Shown here in pieces: positions 32,987-60,821 of a DNA stretch of 64,000 nt. Made by a program: the position numbers and the translations under genes. Numbering within the stretch: position 1 is the first letter of the stretch; the number at the start of each line of letters is the position of its first letter. The stretch is from Bacteroidota bacterium (GTDB lineage: Bacteria; Bacteroidota; Bacteroidia; Chitinophagales; UBA10324), in the NCBI GenBank assembly GCA_018267315.1, contig JAFDYS010000009.1, forward strand, positions 110,786 to 174,785. Reading direction: 5' to 3'. The notes below the pieces were generated by a model that was given only the letters and a program-made list of their open reading frames with translations, had not been told where the DNA came from and made no database searches.

Positions 32987-34306
32987 ATGGAGAGTCATCC
33001 GGTTCACGATTTGCTCGGGCAACTGAAGCAGCGCATTCACTTGCGGTTGCTTGATCATTTCTCAGCGGGAAAGGCAGATGCCGCTTTTTCTTATCAGCTT
33101 CATTCATCAACAGATCCGCTGAGTGACTTCATCCGCGAACAGGAATTGAATGAAGATGAAATCACCCTGTTGCTGCTTGCACTGGTGCCGCATGTCTATC
33201 CGAATTTTTTTGAGCCGCTCATACAGGAATTTCTTCCGCAGGGCGGTGAGTTTCCCGAATTCGGCGGGGTGCGAAGCGGCAATCACCGCGGACTTATACC
33301 CACCGGTGAAACCGCTCTTTTCATTTTGGCCGGAAATAAGATAGACGAACGGCTGATGTTTCAGCGCCTCTTCACCGAGCAGCATCTTTTCTCTAAACTG
33401 AATGTGCTGCATATCGAAGAGGTGAAAGAGGGCGAACCCGTTTTCAGCGGCCGCATTTTGCTTTCACATGAATGGCTCGAAAAATTTCTCACTGGCACGA
33501 CATCCAAGCCGCGGTTCAGCTATGATTTTCCGGCCAAGTTTATTGCAACCGGCATGACGTGGGACGACCTGGTGCTGCATCCGCAAACCCGCGAGCAGAT
33601 TGACACCATCAAAATCTGGCTCGAACATCATCAGGAGCTGATGAGTGATCCCCTTCTCTCTAAAAAACTCAAACCCGGTTACCGCGTACTTTTTTATGGA
33701 CCGCCGGGAACGGGAAAAACGCTCACCGCCACCCTGCTCGGCAATCAGTTCGGCAAAGATGTTTTCCGCATTGACCTGTCACAGGTGGTTTCGAAATACA
33801 TCGGTGAAACGGAAAAAAATCTGGAGAAGGTTTTTTCACGCGCCGAAAACAAAGACTGGATTCTTTTTTTTGATGAAGCGGATGCGCTCTTTGGTAAGCG
33901 CACTTCGGTGAGCAGCTCGCACGACCGGTATGCCAACCAGGAAATCTCTTACCTGCTGCAGCGCCTCGAAGATTTTCCGGGATTGCTGATTCTCGCTTCA
34001 AATTTTAAAAGCAACATTGATACGGCATTTCTGCGCCGCTTTCACCAGATGATTTTCTTCCCGATGCCTGCCGCAGAAGAGCGGCTCATGCTGTGGGAGA
34101 AAATGATTCCGCAAAAAATGAAACTCTCCAAAGATGTGAGTTTGCAGCAGCTCGCGCAGAAATATGAACTCACCGGAGCTTCTATCGTGAATGTGATGCA
34201 GCATGCCGCACTCAAAGCCATTCACCGCAAAGATTATATGCTGAAGACCGCCGACCTGCAGGAAGCCATTAGAAGGGAGTTTCAGAAAGAAGAGAAAACG
34301 GCGTAA
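32987..34306 (+). CDS. CIS-associated AAA+ ATPase (Afp15/Pvc15-like)
   Basis: Walker A 'FYGPPGTGKT' and Walker B 'ILFFDEADALF' are present, followed by a C-terminal AAA lid. It lies immediately upstream of the CIS structural genes. Confidence 0.75.
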   Translation: MESHPVHDLLGQLKQRIHLRLLDHFSAGKADAAFSYQLHSSTDPLSDFIREQELNEDEITLLLLALVPHVYPNFFEPLIQEFLPQGGEFPEFGGVRSGNHRGLIPTGETALFILAGNKIDERLMFQRLFTEQHLFSKLNVLHIEEVKEGEPVFSGRILLSHEWLEKFLTGTTSKPRFSYDFPAKFIATGMTWDDLVLHPQTREQIDTIKIWLEHHQELMSDPLLSKKLKPGYRVLFYGPPGTGKTLTATLLGNQFGKDVFRIDLSQVVSKYIGETEKNLEKVFSRAENKDWILFFDEADALFGKRTSVSSSHDRYANQEISYLLQRLEDFPGLLILASNFKSNIDTAFLRRFHQMIFFPMPAAEERLMLWEKMIPQKMKLSKDVSLQQLAQKYELTGASIVNVMQHAALKAIHRKDYMLKTADLQEAIRREFQKEEKTA

Positions 34307-34399
34307 CAAAGAGTGGCGAGGCACCCCTGCTTCTTCTTTACAAAAAGTTAATCAAAAAAAAGTTTAATCAAAAAGAGGCGATACCGAAAAAGGGTACAC

Positions 34400-34407
34400 T
34401 ATATTTG
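34400..34407 (+). promoter_or_regulatory. Candidate Bacteroidota -7 promoter box upstream of the CIS structural operon
   Basis: 'TATATTTG' matches the TAnnTTTG consensus 42 nt upstream of the DUF4255 ATG. No convincing -33 TTTG lies at canonical spacing. Confidence 0.3.
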
Positions 34408-58882: not shown

Positions 58883-59475
58883 GAAAATTTCTTCCCCTCA
58901 TCTTGTTTCTATTCGCCTCCTGCAGCAAGGATGTGACACAAATAACCATAGGCGATCCGTTCAATTCCATTTCCAACACCGCTTCGATCAAAATGGTCAG
59001 CGTTCCTTACACTTCAGCGAATTTGGGAATTGATCTAAGAACACCGGGTGATGACAACGCCAATGAACTGCGCGAAGAGTTCGGTGCCGAAGTGCCCGTC
59101 CCTTCCCCCGTCACCGATTCACTTTCTGATGATTTTGAAATTGAATGGCAGCAGGTGAAAGCTAAGTTTATTGCCGCCGGAGTTTTCAGCAAGCCGCCCG
59201 ACATCGGCATCATTGACGGCAACATCATTAACAACAGCAATGATTGCGTATGGCTTTGGAACAGCGGGTTCGGAACCGGCAACAGCAATCACATTGCATT
59301 TGATGACGGGCGCAGTGTGATTGGAATTTCCAACGGGCAACCGGTGTATTCAAATACCCTCCTGCCACTGACGAAAGGAAAACGATATTACCTGATGCTG
59401 TGGGCATGGAATGATGATGCAACCCGCATTGAATTTTCAAGTAAGCTAATTATCATCTACATCAGGGCGCTGTGA
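58879..59475 (+). CDS. Lipoprotein (hypothetical)
   Basis: It has a lipobox-like 'LILFLFASCSKD'. An ATGA overlap links it to the upstream gene, and a GTGA overlap links it to the downstream payload gene. Confidence 0.5.
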   Translation: MRKFLPLILFLFASCSKDVTQITIGDPFNSISNTASIKMVSVPYTSANLGIDLRTPGDDNANELREEFGAEVPVPSPVTDSLSDDFEIEWQQVKAKFIAAGVFSKPPDIGIIDGNIINNSNDCVWLWNSGFGTGNSNHIAFDDGRSVIGISNGQPVYSNTLLPLTKGKRYYLMLWAWNDDATRIEFSSKLIIIYIRAL

Positions 59476-60821
59476 AAAGCCACACTGTTCACCGTAAATC
59501 AAGCCGGCGCATGCTGCGCCACGGGAGAAACGGAACACATCCGTTCTTCAGGGGACAACACAGCGCAACTCAGTTTGATGCTTCAATGGAATCAGAGGCG
59601 GATCACATAGCAGACCGGATTACCAGAACAGACCATTATGCGGGGCCCGGTTCATTCTTCCGCCCCGCCTCTTTAGCGCAAATACCACCGGCCGCCCATG
59701 GTGTGAACGGCCCCGTGTTACGAAAAGCGCAGAGCCCAGCAAGTGGCGGCGACGGTCCGGTTACCACATTTCTCGGTCAGCAATCTTCAGGAATTCCGTT
59801 GCCTGAGTCAACCCGGAAATTCTTTGAGCCGCGATTGGGTTATGATTTCTCTTCCGTGAGAATTCACCGGAATGAAGAAGCGGCACATTCGGCACAGCGG
59901 ATGAATGCACTGGCCTACACGGTGGGAAACGATATCGTCTTCAACGTAAATCAGTTTTCACCGGAAACAGAAAACGGGAAGAAGCTGCTGGCACATGAAC
60001 TTGTTCATGTTGTTCAGCAACAGCCCGGCCGCCTGCAGCGGAAAGAAATTCCGCCAGAACACCGCGATACGGAAAAAATGCTGAAGTCGGCAAAACTGTT
60101 TTGGGATGATTTTCATGAAACATTTGCTTCTTATGTTGATGCCGGTAAAATTTCCGGAACGGGCTTCGACTCCGCGCAACAAGAGGCCATTCATGTTGAT
60201 GTTTCTGGCAACGGGGATGTTGACATCACTTTCGGGCAGGCCTTTCTTGATGAAAAGAAACCGTTGCTGAGAAAAGCAATGATCAAAGCAGAAATCATAG
60301 ATAAACATCTTTCATACGACCGCTTTGAAGATCTCGCTGTTGATCCCACCCATTCACGCTTGCAGCAAATCAATCCGCCATACCGCGCCGGTATGTATTG
60401 CCAATTGAATTGTCCTGCTACAGCAGCATCGCTTTCGGAATATCTTCAAACAGGCACTGTGAACAAAGCATACTGCAACCCGGCTCTTGAGCAAGGCAAA
60501 GGATATGGTTTTGATGTATCAATGAATACGATGAGTACCGCCACGGATTGGAAGCAGGCATTCGCTGCCATGAAGAAACTGCTGCAGAAGCATGGTGAGT
60601 TTGTAGTGGTGGAAGCACGGCGGAGCGCAAGGCAACAACAGGAAAACAATCTTACGGAATACCACTACTTCACTGTGGTGAATGTGAAGGGGACGTTGTT
60701 TGCCATTGATGCGTTCGGCGGCGGTATTGTAAGCGGTGATGTGGACGCATACATTACACGCCTTAAGGCCACTTACTACGGAATGATGCAGGGAATTTTC
60801 AGGGTGAAACTGGTCCTGTAG
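59472..60821 (+). CDS. DUF4157-domain putative CIS payload 2 with a C-terminal papain-fold (Cys-His-Asp) toxin-like domain
   Basis: The leader is 'ESEADHIADRITR'. The DUF4157 core is 'LPESTRKFFEPRLGYDFSSVRIH...LLAHELVHVVQQ' (HExxH at aa 175-179). The C-terminus has 'YCQLNCPATAASL' (Cys314), 'EYHYFTVVNV' (His398) and 'FAIDAFGG' (Asp413). Confidence 0.7.
   Translation: MKSHTVHRKSSRRMLRHGRNGTHPFFRGQHSATQFDASMESEADHIADRITRTDHYAGPGSFFRPASLAQIPPAAHGVNGPVLRKAQSPASGGDGPVTTFLGQQSSGIPLPESTRKFFEPRLGYDFSSVRIHRNEEAAHSAQRMNALAYTVGNDIVFNVNQFSPETENGKKLLAHELVHVVQQQPGRLQRKEIPPEHRDTEKMLKSAKLFWDDFHETFASYVDAGKISGTGFDSAQQEAIHVDVSGNGDVDITFGQAFLDEKKPLLRKAMIKAEIIDKHLSYDRFEDLAVDPTHSRLQQINPPYRAGMYCQLNCPATAASLSEYLQTGTVNKAYCNPALEQGKGYGFDVSMNTMSTATDWKQAFAAMKKLLQKHGEFVVVEARRSARQQQENNLTEYHYFTVVNVKGTLFAIDAFGGGIVSGDVDAYITRLKATYYGMMQGIFRVKLVL

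What the first reader, a model, noticed from the sequence alone, without database searches (positions are those of the whole stretch)
32987..60821. Complete Afp/PVC-like contractile injection system locus (~27.8 kb) with permuted gene order
Twenty-four same-strand ORFs run through this region, most separated by 0-20 nt or overlapping (ATGA/GTGA).

- **Gene order:** AAA+ ATPase, DUF4255 cap, unknown, sheath, two tube paralogues, DUF5908, LysM initiator, VgrG, PAAR, gp25, gp6-like, gp7-like, unknown 913 aa, candidate tape measure, PG-binding lysozyme-like protein, two DUF4157 proteins and four envelope proteins.
- **Not a canonical T6SS or a prophage:** no TssJ/L/M-type membrane complex or ClpV is visible, and there are no capsid, portal or terminase genes. 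The locus therefore looks like an eCIS or T6SS-iv-type machine.
- **Order differs from Afp/PVC:** the ATPase and cap genes lead the locus instead of ending it, and PAAR precedes gp25.

The combination with the downstream payload and envelope modules does not correspond to a characterised system that I know of.
Basis: partly seen in the sequence, partly recalled or inferred. Interest (0 to 1): 0.85.

Follow-up and report, generated by a model that had tools for sequence, protein, structure and literature searches.

The report
AlgoCIS-like contractile injection system locus
A Chitinophagales bacterium carries a complete phage-tail-like protein-injection machine of an already characterised type (subtype Ib, like AlgoCIS); its core is ordinary, but it comes with a small conserved set of cell-envelope genes and a cell-wall hydrolase that may help release it.

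Summary
The three "unknowns" also resolve:
- The 399-aa ORF is the cap adaptor (Alg16B/All3326).
- The 56-aa ORF is the Alg6 plug (DUF5908).
- The 913-aa ORF is an Alg19/Cis19-type tail fibre.

The best solved-structure matches are AlgoCIS and the Anabaena thylakoid CIS (sheath E about 1e-152), well ahead of Afp/PVC (about 1e-65).

The "permuted" order is the published AlgoCIS order gene for gene: cap first, PAAR before gp25. The one real rearrangement is the AAA+ ATPase. It leads here, but follows TMP and cargo in AlgoCIS and in 40 of 43 informative metagenomic loci. Two other loci also have it first.

The flanks are housekeeping genes. There are no capsid, terminase or T6SS membrane-complex genes.

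One feature is not routine. A signal-less PG-binding GH23 hydrolase and four envelope genes (secreted, 3-TM inner-membrane, OM-type, lipoprotein) lie next to eCIS genes in all five divergent lineages I could inspect, in four different arrangements. AlgoCIS and tCIS lack them. I infer a release (lysis) module at low confidence.

Verdict: a new member of a known kind. Interest 0.35.

The parts
32987..34306 (+). Alg15/Afp15-type AAA+ ATPase (439 aa, single AAA module), the cargo-loading factor. It leads the locus here.
   Evidence: Pfam AAA 1.7e-29. 53-56% identical over its full length to ATPases that end the eCIS clusters in L084/L085. Walker A GPPGTGKT and Walker B FFDEAD are visible. Role taken from the AlgoCIS preprint.
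34449..35036 (+). Cap / tail terminator, short Alg16A type (195 aa).
   Evidence: Pfam Pvc16_N 2.2e-37. Alg16A is 197 aa.
35127..36326 (+). Cap adaptor (Alg16B/Cis16B type, 399 aa).
   Evidence: PDB All3326 2.6e-19 (also 399 aa) and AlgoCIS cap adaptor 4e-7. No Pfam family.
36345..37802 (+). Contractile sheath (485 aa).
   Evidence: Pfam Phage_sheath_1/1C. PDB: AlgoCIS 4.9e-153, Anabaena All3325 1.1e-151 full length, Afp/PVC 1e-52 to 1e-70.
37916..38350 (+). Inner tube protein (Alg1 type).
   Evidence: Pfam Phage_T4_gp19 1.4e-49.
38353..38856 (+). Second tube paralogue / tube initiator (Alg5 type).
   Evidence: Pfam Phage_T4_gp19 3.6e-39.
38920..39090 (+). Plug protein (Alg6/Afp6 type, 56 aa).
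   Evidence: Pfam DUF5908 1.1e-12. Alg6 is 52 aa and forms the spike-cavity plug.
39090..39344 (+). 84-aa ORF of unknown function. It is called as a gene but has no counterpart in AlgoCIS.
   Evidence: Called in L001/L002. No Pfam, NCBIfam, PHROG or PDB hit.
39347..40096 (+). Tube initiator with a C-terminal extension (Alg7 type).
   Evidence: Pfam CIS_tube 1e-50 over residues 4-183. LysM was not detected by Pfam; the LysM-like C-terminus is my reading only.
40099..41835 (+). VgrG-like spike (578 aa; Alg8 is 581 aa).
   Evidence: Pfam Phage_base_V 1.3e-23 and Phage_GPD.
41875..42168 (+). PAAR spike tip.
   Evidence: Pfam PAAR_motif 3.5e-24.
42241..42648 (+). gp25-like baseplate wedge protein.
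   Evidence: Pfam GPW_gp25 4.7e-24.
42645..45824 (+). gp6-like baseplate protein carrying the spike-cage insertion (Alg11 type, 1059 aa).
   Evidence: PDB Alg11 8.9e-166. The alignment covers query 8-429 and 567-1055 against Alg11 11-488 and 545-1036, which includes most of cage domain IV, residues 278-643.
45815..48154 (+). gp7-like baseplate protein (Alg12 type, 779 aa). It lacks the long Cis12 extension.
   Evidence: PDB Alg12 3e-148 and All3315 2.3e-141, matched over residues 3-619.
48157..50898 (+). Tail fibre of the Alg19/Cis19 type (913 aa).
   Evidence: PDB 9wt0_a (Alg19, 1443 aa) 9.7e-58 and All3314 2.3e-30, over the shoulder/neck region 290-539. Alg19 is a trimeric fibre that binds target bacteria.
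50901..52346 (+). Tape measure protein (481 aa).
   Evidence: Pfam CIS_TMP 1.3e-103 full length. It evolves fast: 41% identity to L083 where the flanking genes are 70-91%.
52366..53151 (+). PG-binding GH23 (goose-lysozyme/SLT-like) hydrolase with no signal peptide. Endolysin-like.
   Evidence: Pfam PG_binding_1 1.6e-8 and SLT 0.028. PDB goose-type lysozyme 9e-4. PHROG endolysin hits on the PG-binding part. Orthologues also lack a signal peptide. It travels with the envelope cassette in L169 and L174.
53161..55773 (+). Cargo/effector 1 (870 aa): N-terminal region, DUF4157 (HELTH), then a conserved 530-aa C-terminal domain with invariant His/Cys.
   Evidence: Pfam eCIS_core 9.2e-30. 37 homologues of the CTD, mostly DUF4157 fusions across phyla. 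Invariant S137 H138, G190 C191, H218. AF2 pLDDT 87.7. No PDB fold match at E<=1e-3.
55818..56600 (+). Secreted protein (260 aa, signal peptide ...SIGSAQ|IT). First gene of the envelope cassette.
   Evidence: Sequence. Homologues precede the cassette in L169, L172 and L174 at 27-40% identity. No family hit.
56614..57435 (+). Inner-membrane protein (273 aa): basic N-terminus, about 3 TM segments, then periplasmic CarboxypepD_reg-like beta-sandwich domains.
   Evidence: Sequence. Pfam CarbopepD_reg_2 1.2e-6, below cut-off. phrog_5814 1.1e-9 on the TM part. The TM module recurs in about 700 clusters, some fused to EAD11/COR/TIR.
57440..58882 (+). Signal-peptide protein (480 aa) with CarboxypepD_reg-like domains and a conserved all-beta C-terminal third. 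Presumed outer-membrane protein.
   Evidence: Sequence. Only 4 homologue clusters among 5.8e9 proteins. The AF2 model was unusable, pLDDT 36.
58879..59475 (+). Lipoprotein (198 aa, lipobox LFASC). Last gene of the cassette.
   Evidence: The lipobox is conserved in 6 of 6 orthologues. No family hit.
59511..60821 (+). Cargo/effector 2 (436 aa from ATG 59511; 449 aa from GTG 59472): DUF4157 (HELVH) plus a variable C-terminal domain.
   Evidence: Pfam eCIS_core 7.5e-31. The core is 63% identical to cargo 1. Only 61% identical in a relative whose other genes are 81-91%. Sub-threshold papain-fold hints, Gln_amidase E=0.11.

Best explanation
This is a chromosomal subtype-Ib contractile injection system of the AlgoCIS type, in an uncultured Chitinophagales (Bacteroidota) bacterium.

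**Shown by homology.** The locus has a full particle set: sheath, two tube proteins, tube initiator, Alg6 plug, VgrG-PAAR spike, gp25/gp6/gp7 baseplate with the Alg11-type cage insertion, Alg19-type trimeric fibre, tape measure, and a short cap with its cap adaptor. It also has an Alg15-type AAA+ ATPase and two DUF4157 cargo proteins.

**Inferred from AlgoCIS experiments.**
- The particle assembles in the cytoplasm on the baseplate, to a length set by the 481-aa tape measure. That is about 110 nm using the published 0.229 nm per residue.
- The ATPase threads the two cargo proteins into the tube lumen through their N-terminal regions.
- The fibres bind a target cell, the sheath contracts, and the cargo is expelled.

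**Inferred, low confidence (about 0.35).** The signal-less PG-binding GH23 hydrolase and the four-gene envelope cassette form a dedicated envelope-breaching module that releases the particles. This would be analogous to the holin/endolysin/spanin cassettes of R-tailocins. The cassette comprises a secreted protein, a 3-TM inner-membrane protein with periplasmic beta-sandwich domains, an OM-type protein and an OM lipoprotein.

The ATPase-first position is a minor, recurrent rearrangement with no evident functional meaning.
For: **Families.** Pfam hits for all core families are above cut-off.

**Closest solved structures are AlgoCIS and the Anabaena CIS for every large component.**
- Sheath 4.9e-153 / 1.1e-151, against 1e-52 to 1e-70 for Afp/PVC.
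- Cap adaptor.
- Alg11 8.9e-166, with the cage region aligned.
- Alg12 3e-148.
- Alg19 9.7e-58.

**Order.** The genes are collinear with AlgoCIS Supplementary Table 1.

**ATPase.** It is orthologous (53-56% identity, full length) to cluster-terminal eCIS ATPases.

**Published roles.** Cargo in the tube lumen. Alg15-dependent loading and the TMP ruler. Alg19 fibres binding bacteria.

**Context.** Flanks are housekeeping plus T9SS substrates. UvrC is 76% identical to a Chitinophagales MAG.

**Envelope cassette.**
- Its orthologues lie beside eCIS genes in 5 of 5 informative lineages, in four arrangements: between cargo genes; after the terminal ATPase plus a GerE regulator; between the cap and the PG hydrolase; before the ATPase.
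- The PG hydrolase co-occurs with it at 54-75% identity.
- Lipobox, signal peptides and the absence of a signal peptide on the hydrolase are all conserved.
- The cassette stays while the adjacent cargo genes change.
Against: - No particle, expression or release data exist for this organism. eCIS, T6SS-iv-like and thylakoid-type modes all occur within subtype Ib and cannot be told apart by sequence.
- AlgoCIS is released without any such cassette.
- The 3-TM protein is not a recognisable holin. It is N-in with a large periplasmic domain, and it matches no holin family.
- None of the four envelope proteins hits a lysis family.
- The hydrolase's catalytic-domain assignment rests on weak hits: SLT 0.028 and goose lysozyme 9e-4.
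- The OM-barrel idea is unsupported by a usable model.
- The five lineages may all be fairly close Bacteroidota, so part of the linkage could be inherited synteny. L176 keeps the PBP1 neighbour.
Confidence: 0.85

Rival explanations
1. This is a cell-anchored (T6SS-iv-like) contractile system. On this reading the 3-TM inner-membrane protein, the OM-type protein and the lipoprotein form a trans-envelope anchor, and the PG hydrolase opens the cell wall for it. That would be functionally analogous to TssJLM or TssNQOPR, and firing would be contact-dependent from inside the cell.
For: - Subtype Ib contains both released and membrane-attached systems.
- The cassette has the topology expected of an envelope-spanning complex: IM protein, OM lipoprotein and periplasmic beta-sandwich domains.
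- It is tightly linked to CIS genes in 5 of 5 lineages.
- T6SS membrane complexes have been replaced by unrelated proteins before, as in Bacteroidota TssNQOPR.
Against: - No similarity in sequence or architecture to TssJLM or TssNQOPR.
- The hydrolase has no signal peptide or membrane anchor, unlike enzymes that remodel PG for envelope machines.
- The locus keeps an Alg19-type fibre, a tape measure and a cap, which are typical of free particles.
- No ClpV-like recycling ATPase is present.
- No link between the cassette and the baseplate can be shown.
Confidence: 0.1
2. This is an ordinary AlgoCIS-type eCIS, and the four envelope genes are not part of the machine. They would be immunity or self-protection proteins for the cargo toxins, or unrelated surface genes that hitch-hike in a variable region.
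For: - Immunity genes do occur in eCIS loci.
- The secreted 260-aa protein lies directly after cargo 1, and the lipoprotein directly before cargo 2.
- The cassette proteins evolve fast, 27-47% identity between lineages.
- The family is tiny: 4 clusters for the 480-aa protein.
Against: - The cassette is retained while the adjacent toxins change or are absent. L169 has different second and third cargo genes. L172, L174 and L175 have no cargo next to it.
- Its four genes keep their order, lengths and export signals in every lineage. That pattern is unusual for immunity genes, which co-vary with their toxins.
- It is found next to different eCIS genes in different arrangements, which argues for selection on linkage to the machine rather than to a toxin.
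Confidence: 0.25
3. This is a defective prophage tail or an R-type tailocin rather than a cargo-translocating CIS.
For: The sheath, tube and baseplate families are shared with myophage tails, and an endolysin-like gene is present.
Against: - eCIS-specific families are present: CIS_TMP, CIS_tube, Pvc16_N, DUF5908, eCIS_core, plus the Afp15-type ATPase.
- T4 and pyocin sheaths score only 1e-5 against 1e-152 for AlgoCIS.
- No capsid, portal, terminase, integrase or tRNA occurs in the 64 kb or in the 10 kb beyond.
Confidence: 0.02

Closest known systems
AlgoCIS of Algoriphagus machipongonensis (eCIS subtype Ib; PDB 7ADZ/7AEB/9WT0)
   Same: - Same gene set and same order from cap to second cargo: cap, cap adaptor, sheath, tube x2, Alg6 plug, tube initiator, VgrG, PAAR, gp25, Alg11 with cage, Alg12, Alg19 fibre, TMP, two DUF4157 cargo proteins. 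A roughly 435-aa single-module AAA+ ATPase is also present.
- Both hosts are Bacteroidota.
   Different: - The ATPase is at the 5' end here and at the 3' end in AlgoCIS.
- The sheath is 485 aa against 692 aa, so it lacks the extra domain.
- The adaptor is 399 aa against 284 aa.
- The fibre is 913 aa against 1443 aa, and Alg12 is 779 aa against 933 aa.
- There is no TPR gene.
- This locus adds an 84-aa ORF, a PG-binding GH23 hydrolase and the four-gene envelope cassette.
Anabaena sp. PCC 7120 thylakoid-anchored CIS (all3313-all3327; PDB 7B5H/7B5I)
   Same: - Sheath of the same length, aligned end to end (1.1e-151).
- Cap adaptor of the same length (399 aa, 2.6e-19).
- Homologues of Cis11, Cis12 and Cis19.
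- DUF4157 effectors.
   Different: - No Cis13 gene with a TM domain between gp6 and gp7.
- The gp7 homologue lacks the residue 610-1100 extension that anchors the particle to thylakoids (779 aa against 1335 aa).
- The host has no thylakoids.
Afp (Serratia) and PVC (Photorhabdus), eCIS subtype Ia
   Same: Same superfamily and the same core components, Afp1-16 homologues.
   Different: - Much weaker similarity: sheath 1e-52 to 1e-70, Afp11 1e-36.
- One sheath gene here against three there.
- Short cap plus a separate adaptor here, against a two-domain Afp16.
- Fibre of Alg19 type rather than the adenovirus-like Afp13.
- Single-module ATPase.
- Different gene order.
Holin/endolysin/spanin lysis cassettes of R-type tailocins, and T10SS of insect pathogens
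   Same: - A signal-less PG hydrolase with a PG-binding domain is encoded inside a tail-like particle cluster.
- It sits together with an inner-membrane protein and an OM lipoprotein.
   Different: - No sequence match to any holin or spanin family.
- The membrane protein is large, with periplasmic beta-sandwich domains.
- There are two additional exported proteins.
- The function is untested.

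Membership tests
eCIS superfamily, subtype Ib (AlgoCIS/MAC/T6SS-iv/tCIS clade) | Sheath, gp19-type tube proteins and an Afp11/Baseplate_J protein (the screening markers of Chen et al. 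2019). | tested here: met
   Pfam hits above cut-off. The markers are described.
eCIS superfamily, subtype Ib (AlgoCIS/MAC/T6SS-iv/tCIS clade) | Afp14 tape measure, Afp16 cap and Afp15 ATPase are present. These components are absent from canonical T6SS. | tested here: met
   CIS_TMP 1.3e-103, Pvc16_N 2.2e-37, AAA 1.7e-29 with eCIS orthology.
eCIS superfamily, subtype Ib (AlgoCIS/MAC/T6SS-iv/tCIS clade) | The sheath groups with Ib representatives rather than Ia or II. | tested here: inconclusive
   Only a ranking against solved structures was possible: AlgoCIS 4.9e-153 and Anabaena 1.1e-151, against Salmonella CIS 1e-108, Afp/PVC <=1e-64 and other CISs about 1e-50. No tree with dbeCIS sequences could be built.
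eCIS superfamily, subtype Ib (AlgoCIS/MAC/T6SS-iv/tCIS clade) | The Ib-type extras described for AlgoCIS: cap adaptor, Alg6 plug and the spike cage domain of Alg11. | tested here: met
   Adaptor. DUF5908. The Alg11 alignment covers most of domain IV. The cage fold itself was not modelled.
eCIS superfamily, subtype Ib (AlgoCIS/MAC/T6SS-iv/tCIS clade) | Ib gene order: cap first, PAAR before gp25, cargo at the 3' end. | tested here: met
   Collinear with AlgoCIS Supplementary Table 1 except for the ATPase.
Extracellular mode of action (true eCIS) | Particles are free in the cytoplasm and released into the medium. | not testable with these tools
   Needs EM or cryo-ET. Only indirect hints are available: a fibre, an endolysin-like gene, and no known anchor.
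Thylakoid-anchored CIS (tCIS) | A Cis13 TM domain and the Cis12 extension (residues 610-1100). | tested here: not met
   No gene lies between gp6 and gp7. The gp7 homologue is 779 aa and matches only over 3-619. Features as defined.
Canonical T6SS (i-iii) | Membrane-complex genes (TssJLM or TssNQOPR) and ClpV are linked to the locus. | tested here: not met
   No such Pfam hits in any ORF of 150 aa or more in the window. The cassette architecture differs from TssNQOPR.
Prophage / myophage tail | Capsid, portal, terminase and integrase genes adjacent to the locus. | tested here: not met
   Flanks are alr, rodA, PBP2, mreBCD, glycosyltransferases, T9SS substrates, uvrC, PBP1, dUTPase and similar. 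No tRNA.
Holin-endolysin-spanin lysis cassette | A cytoplasmic PG hydrolase with no signal peptide. | tested here: met
   PG_binding_1 plus weak GH23 hits. There is no N-terminal hydrophobic segment here or in the orthologues.
Holin-endolysin-spanin lysis cassette | A recognisable holin and spanin pair (small TM protein; Rz/Rz1-type IM protein plus OM lipoprotein). | tested here: inconclusive
   An IM protein and a conserved OM lipoprotein exist. Neither matches any holin or spanin family, and the sizes and domains are atypical.

The most novel reading that the evidence does not exclude
The PG-binding GH23 hydrolase and the secreted / 3-TM / OM-type / lipoprotein cassette (52366-53151 and 55818-59475) may form a previously undescribed accessory apparatus dedicated to eCISs in Chitinophagales-type Bacteroidota. 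It would either breach the producer's envelope to release particles, as a non-homologous analogue of holin-endolysin-spanin, or dock the machine to the envelope. If true, it would give a genetic handle on how subtype-Ib CISs get out of, or fire from, diderm cells.
Probability: 0.3. Interest if true: 0.65.

Novelty: new member of a known kind. Interest (0 to 1): 0.35.

Why it matters
The core locus adds one more Bacteroidota example to a well-catalogued family. It changes nothing conceptually, and its gene order is the published subtype-Ib order.

Three points have some value:
- **Release or anchoring.** How Afp/PVC-superfamily particles leave the producer is poorly understood, and many loci have no recognisable lysis genes. 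A small gene set that tracks eCIS loci through several rearrangements is a concrete, testable candidate for that step.
- **A new cargo domain.** The 530-aa C-terminal domain of cargo 1 is a confidently folding, cross-phylum, DUF4157-linked domain. It has an invariant His/Cys pair and no structural relative in the PDB, which makes it a candidate new effector activity.
- **Engineering.** The compact sheath and short fibre could interest people engineering AlgoCIS-type delivery particles.

Tried and rejected
- **Model of the 480-aa envelope protein.** AF2 with a 4-sequence alignment gave pLDDT 36. The model was unusable and I ran no fold search on it.
- **Fold search of the cargo-1 C-terminal model.** Foldseek against the PDB gave no match at E<=1e-3. 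There were only weak Rossmann-like methyltransferase hits and low-probability MALT1 paracaspase hits. I therefore do not claim a caspase fold. I claim only an invariant His-after-strand and Cys-after-strand pattern.
- **PDB sequence searches.** Searches with the 84-aa ORF and with the profile of the 480-aa protein found nothing.
- **Promoter and terminator scans.** Counts did not exceed shuffled controls, and the sigma-70 model does not suit Bacteroidota in any case.
- **Island boundaries.** No tRNA genes.
- **eCIS next to uvrC in other genomes.** None of 80 loci carried one. The closest genome's contig (76% UvrC) was too short to tell, so the age of the insertion is unresolved.
- **Viral contig scan with the 3-TM protein.** No relatives.
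- **Comparison with Bacteroidota TssNQOPR.** The architectures do not match.
- **Papain-fold idea for cargo 2.** It rests only on sub-threshold hits (E 0.06-0.11), so I keep it as a lead, not a finding.
- **EAD11/COR/TIR fusions of the 3-TM module.** These suggest a membrane-acting effector module, but I found no published description to lean on.

Full report
**1. Observation**

The + strand between 32987 and 60821 carries 23 consecutive ORFs. Fourteen or fifteen of the 22 junctions are 20 nt or less, or overlap. The largest gaps are 142 nt (ATPase to cap), 113 nt (sheath to tube) and 90 nt (cap to adaptor).

The locus is assembled identically in many independent public runs. The sheath protein is indexed in 134 blocks and the 480-aa protein in 188.

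Small corrections:
- The downstream order is PG-binding, DUF4157, four envelope genes, DUF4157.
- An 84-aa ORF sits between DUF5908 and the tube initiator.
- LysM was not detected by Pfam.

**2. The "unknowns" resolve against solved structures**

- The 399-aa ORF is the cap adaptor: All3326 (399 aa) at 2.6e-19 and AlgoCIS Alg16B at 4e-7.
- The 779-aa ORF is Alg12/Cis12: 3e-148 and 2.3e-141.
- The 913-aa ORF is the Alg19/Cis19 fibre: 9.7e-58 to the 1443-aa Alg19 chain of 9WT0 and 2.3e-30 to All3314, over the shoulder/neck region. Alg19 forms trimeric fibres that bind target bacteria.
- The gp6-like protein (1059 aa) matches Alg11 (1050 aa) at 8.9e-166. The alignment runs through most of the cage domain, residues 278-643.
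- The sheath matches AlgoCIS (4.9e-153) and Anabaena All3325 (1.1e-151, end to end, 485 aa against 484 aa). Afp/PVC sheaths score 1e-52 to 1e-70, and T4 and pyocin sheaths about 1e-5.

**3. Gene order**

Supplementary Table 1 of the AlgoCIS paper lists the cluster as Alg16A, 16B, 2, 1, 5, 6, 7, 8, 10, 9, 11, 12, 19, 14, Cgo1, Cgo2, TPR protein, Alg15. The window is collinear with this from cap to second cargo, including "cap first" and "PAAR before gp25". The Anabaena operon likewise starts at all3327. Chen et al. 2019 already reported that subtypes Ia and Ib differ in organisation, and that Ib includes Bacteroidetes and Cyanobacteria. So the "permutation" relative to Afp/PVC is a known property of the subtype.

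The only real difference is the ATPase.
- The window's ATPase is 53-56% identical over its full length to ATPases that close the clusters in two Bacteroidota relatives.
- I fetched 80 metagenomic loci encoding orthologues and mapped the window's proteins onto them.
- In 40 of 43 loci with more than 3 kb upstream, TMP, DUF4157 or fibre genes precede the ATPase.
- In only 2 of 41 loci with more than 3 kb downstream (L156, L159), cap, adaptor and sheath follow it, as they do here.
- ATPase-first is therefore uncommon but not unique.

**4. Context**

The rest of the window encodes alanine racemase, RodA, PBP2, MreBCD, glycosyltransferases, a radical-SAM enzyme, several T9SS substrates (Por_Secre_tail), UvrC, a GDSL lipase, a monofunctional transglycosylase and a START protein upstream, and PBP1 downstream. 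Beyond the window come a TPR protein, dUTPase and a nucleotidyltransferase.

There are no capsid, portal, terminase, integrase or tRNA genes and no T6SS membrane-complex genes. UvrC is 76% identical to a Chitinophagales MAG and 58-60% to others. None of the 80 uvrC neighbourhoods carries an eCIS. The closest one is too short to judge.

**5. Cargo**

Both DUF4157 proteins carry the HExxH motif (HELTH and HELVH), a 63%-identical core, and a shared N-terminal E-x-EAD-x-x-A-x-R motif. This matches the architecture described for Cgo1 and Cgo2, which fill the AlgoCIS tube lumen and need the N-terminal region and Alg15 for loading.

The 530-aa C-terminal part of the 870-aa protein:
- It has 37 homologues, mostly fused to DUF4157. 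They include proteins labelled Chloroflexi, Nitrososphaeraceae archaeon and Amycolatopsis.
- Residues S137, H138, G190, C191 and H218 are invariant.
- It folds confidently (pLDDT 87.7), with H138 and C191 each just after a beta strand.
- No solved structure matches at E<=1e-3.
- I read it as an uncharacterised Cys/His enzyme domain. The activity is unknown.

The second cargo's C-terminus is variable. It is 61% identical in a relative whose other genes are 81-91% identical. It gives only sub-threshold papain-fold hints.

**6. The PG hydrolase and the four envelope genes**

The 261-aa protein has PG_binding_1 plus a weakly GH23-like domain: SLT 0.028 and goose lysozyme 9e-4. It has no signal peptide. 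In the closest eCIS relative, the same slot holds a PG_binding_1 plus CHAP protein.

The four genes encode:
- a signal-peptide protein (260 aa);
- a protein with a basic N-terminus, about three TM segments and CarboxypepD_reg-like domains (273 aa);
- a signal-peptide protein with CarboxypepD_reg-like domains and a conserved all-beta C-terminus (480 aa);
- a lipoprotein (198 aa).

The 480-aa protein has only four homologue clusters among 5.8 billion. An exhaustive search with the 273-aa protein found roughly ten full-length relatives.

Every informative context lies next to eCIS genes:

| Locus | Identity to the window | Arrangement |
|---|---|---|
| window, L170, L171 | 100% and 81-91% | between the two cargo genes |
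| L169 | about 42% | same order, with different and additional cargo genes |
| L172, L173 | 27-41% | after a terminal eCIS ATPase and a GerE regulator; first gene enlarged to a 711-aa BNR/PKD protein |
| L174 | 27-31% | between an eCIS cap gene (55% identical) and an orthologue of the PG hydrolase (54% identical) |
| L175 | 27-31% | upstream of an eCIS ATPase (54% identical) |

GerE is a known eCIS "shell" gene. Two further contigs were too short to judge.

The lipobox is conserved in 6 of 6 orthologues, and the signal peptides are conserved too. AlgoCIS and the Anabaena cluster lack these genes. None of the 80 ATPase loci contained them at E<=1e-5.

The cassette persists while the neighbouring toxins change, which argues against an immunity role. 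Its linkage survives four different arrangements, which argues for a function tied to the machine.

The parsimonious reading is an envelope-breaching release module built around an endolysin-like enzyme. R-tailocin clusters carry such modules, but many Afp/PVC-type loci have none that can be recognised. I hold this at about 0.35. No component matches a holin or spanin family. An anchoring role cannot be excluded.

The 3-TM segment is itself a mobile module. It has about 700 clusters at E<=1e-3. In a sample of 95, 23 carry CarboxypepD_reg, 9 EAD11, 5 COR-B and 1-2 TIR. That is compatible with a membrane-acting role but proves nothing.

**7. Mechanism, with status**

- **Shown by homology:** a complete contractile particle with a cap adaptor, plug, caged spike, Alg19-type fibres, tape measure, loading ATPase and two DUF4157 cargo proteins.
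- **Inferred from AlgoCIS experiments:** cytoplasmic assembly; ATPase-dependent threading of unfolded cargo into the tube; a length of about 110 nm (481 residues at 0.229 nm per residue); fibre-mediated binding; and contraction-driven delivery. The target may be bacterial, given the Alg19-type fibre, but it is unknown.
- **Inferred, weak:** release through the hydrolase and envelope cassette.

**8. Verdict**

This is a real, complete CIS locus and a new member of eCIS subtype Ib, nearly collinear with AlgoCIS. The novelty claim about gene order is not.

The one feature beyond routine is the eCIS-linked hydrolase and envelope cassette, whose function is untested. Interest is 0.35.

Noticed in passing
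window 39090-39344 (+): An 84-aa ORF is wedged between the Alg6-type plug gene and the tube initiator, with a 1-nt overlap upstream and a 2-nt gap downstream. The gene caller calls it as a gene. It has no hit in any library and no counterpart in AlgoCIS. I cannot tell whether it is a real small CIS component or a spurious ORF.
   Followed up: partly
window 50901-52346 versus L083 10001-11404: The tape measure is far more diverged than its neighbours in the closest eCIS relative: 41% identity against 70-91% for VgrG, gp25, gp7 and the fibre. Everything downstream of it differs as well. The TMP-to-cargo segment looks like a recombination or hypervariable zone.
   Followed up: partly
window 56614-56900 (residues about 14-100 of the 273-aa protein): This 3-TM segment is a widespread mobile module, with about 700 clusters at E<=1e-3. 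It sits at either end of proteins of very different sizes. In a sample of 95 it is fused to CarboxypepD_reg (23), EAD11 (9), COR-A/COR-B/Roc (3-5) or TIR (1-2). It also matches the phage family phrog_5814 of unknown function (E 1e-9).
   Followed up: partly
window 54181-55773 (C-terminal 530 aa of the 870-aa cargo): This DUF4157-linked domain is conserved across phyla, including Chloroflexi, a Nitrososphaeraceae archaeon and Amycolatopsis. It has invariant SH...GC...H residues, a confident AF2 model and no PDB structural relative. It is a candidate new effector family.
   Followed up: partly
L174 3082-3941 (GCA_014380545.1, JACMJP010000148.1): An eCIS cap gene (55% identical) is followed by a 92-aa fragment resembling only the N-terminus of the cap adaptor. 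The envelope cassette and the PG hydrolase come next, instead of a sheath. A histidine kinase-like gene and an EVE-domain gene lie upstream. This may be a split or decayed CIS locus.
   Followed up: no
window 3388-4608, 18571-28682: Five genes encode proteins with C-terminal Por_Secre_tail (T9SS sorting) domains: Kelch, esterase, a Sortilin/BNR protein and a 1039-aa MopE-motif protein among them. This marks the host as a T9SS-bearing Bacteroidota. A 1062-aa MopE/Por_Secre_tail protein also lies next to the cassette in L172.
   Followed up: no
window 30640-32905 (+): Three co-directional genes lie directly upstream of the ATPase: a GDSL lipase, a monofunctional PG glycosyltransferase and a signal-peptide START-domain protein. 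The last is only 81 nt from the ATPase start. I treated them as flanking housekeeping genes and did not test whether they are co-transcribed with the CIS.
   Followed up: no
window 6325-12051 (-): A complete rod-shape cluster (mreB, mreC, a probable mreD, PBP2, rodA). Together with the two class-A/monofunctional transglycosylase genes flanking the CIS, this makes the whole neighbourhood rich in cell-wall genes.
   Followed up: no
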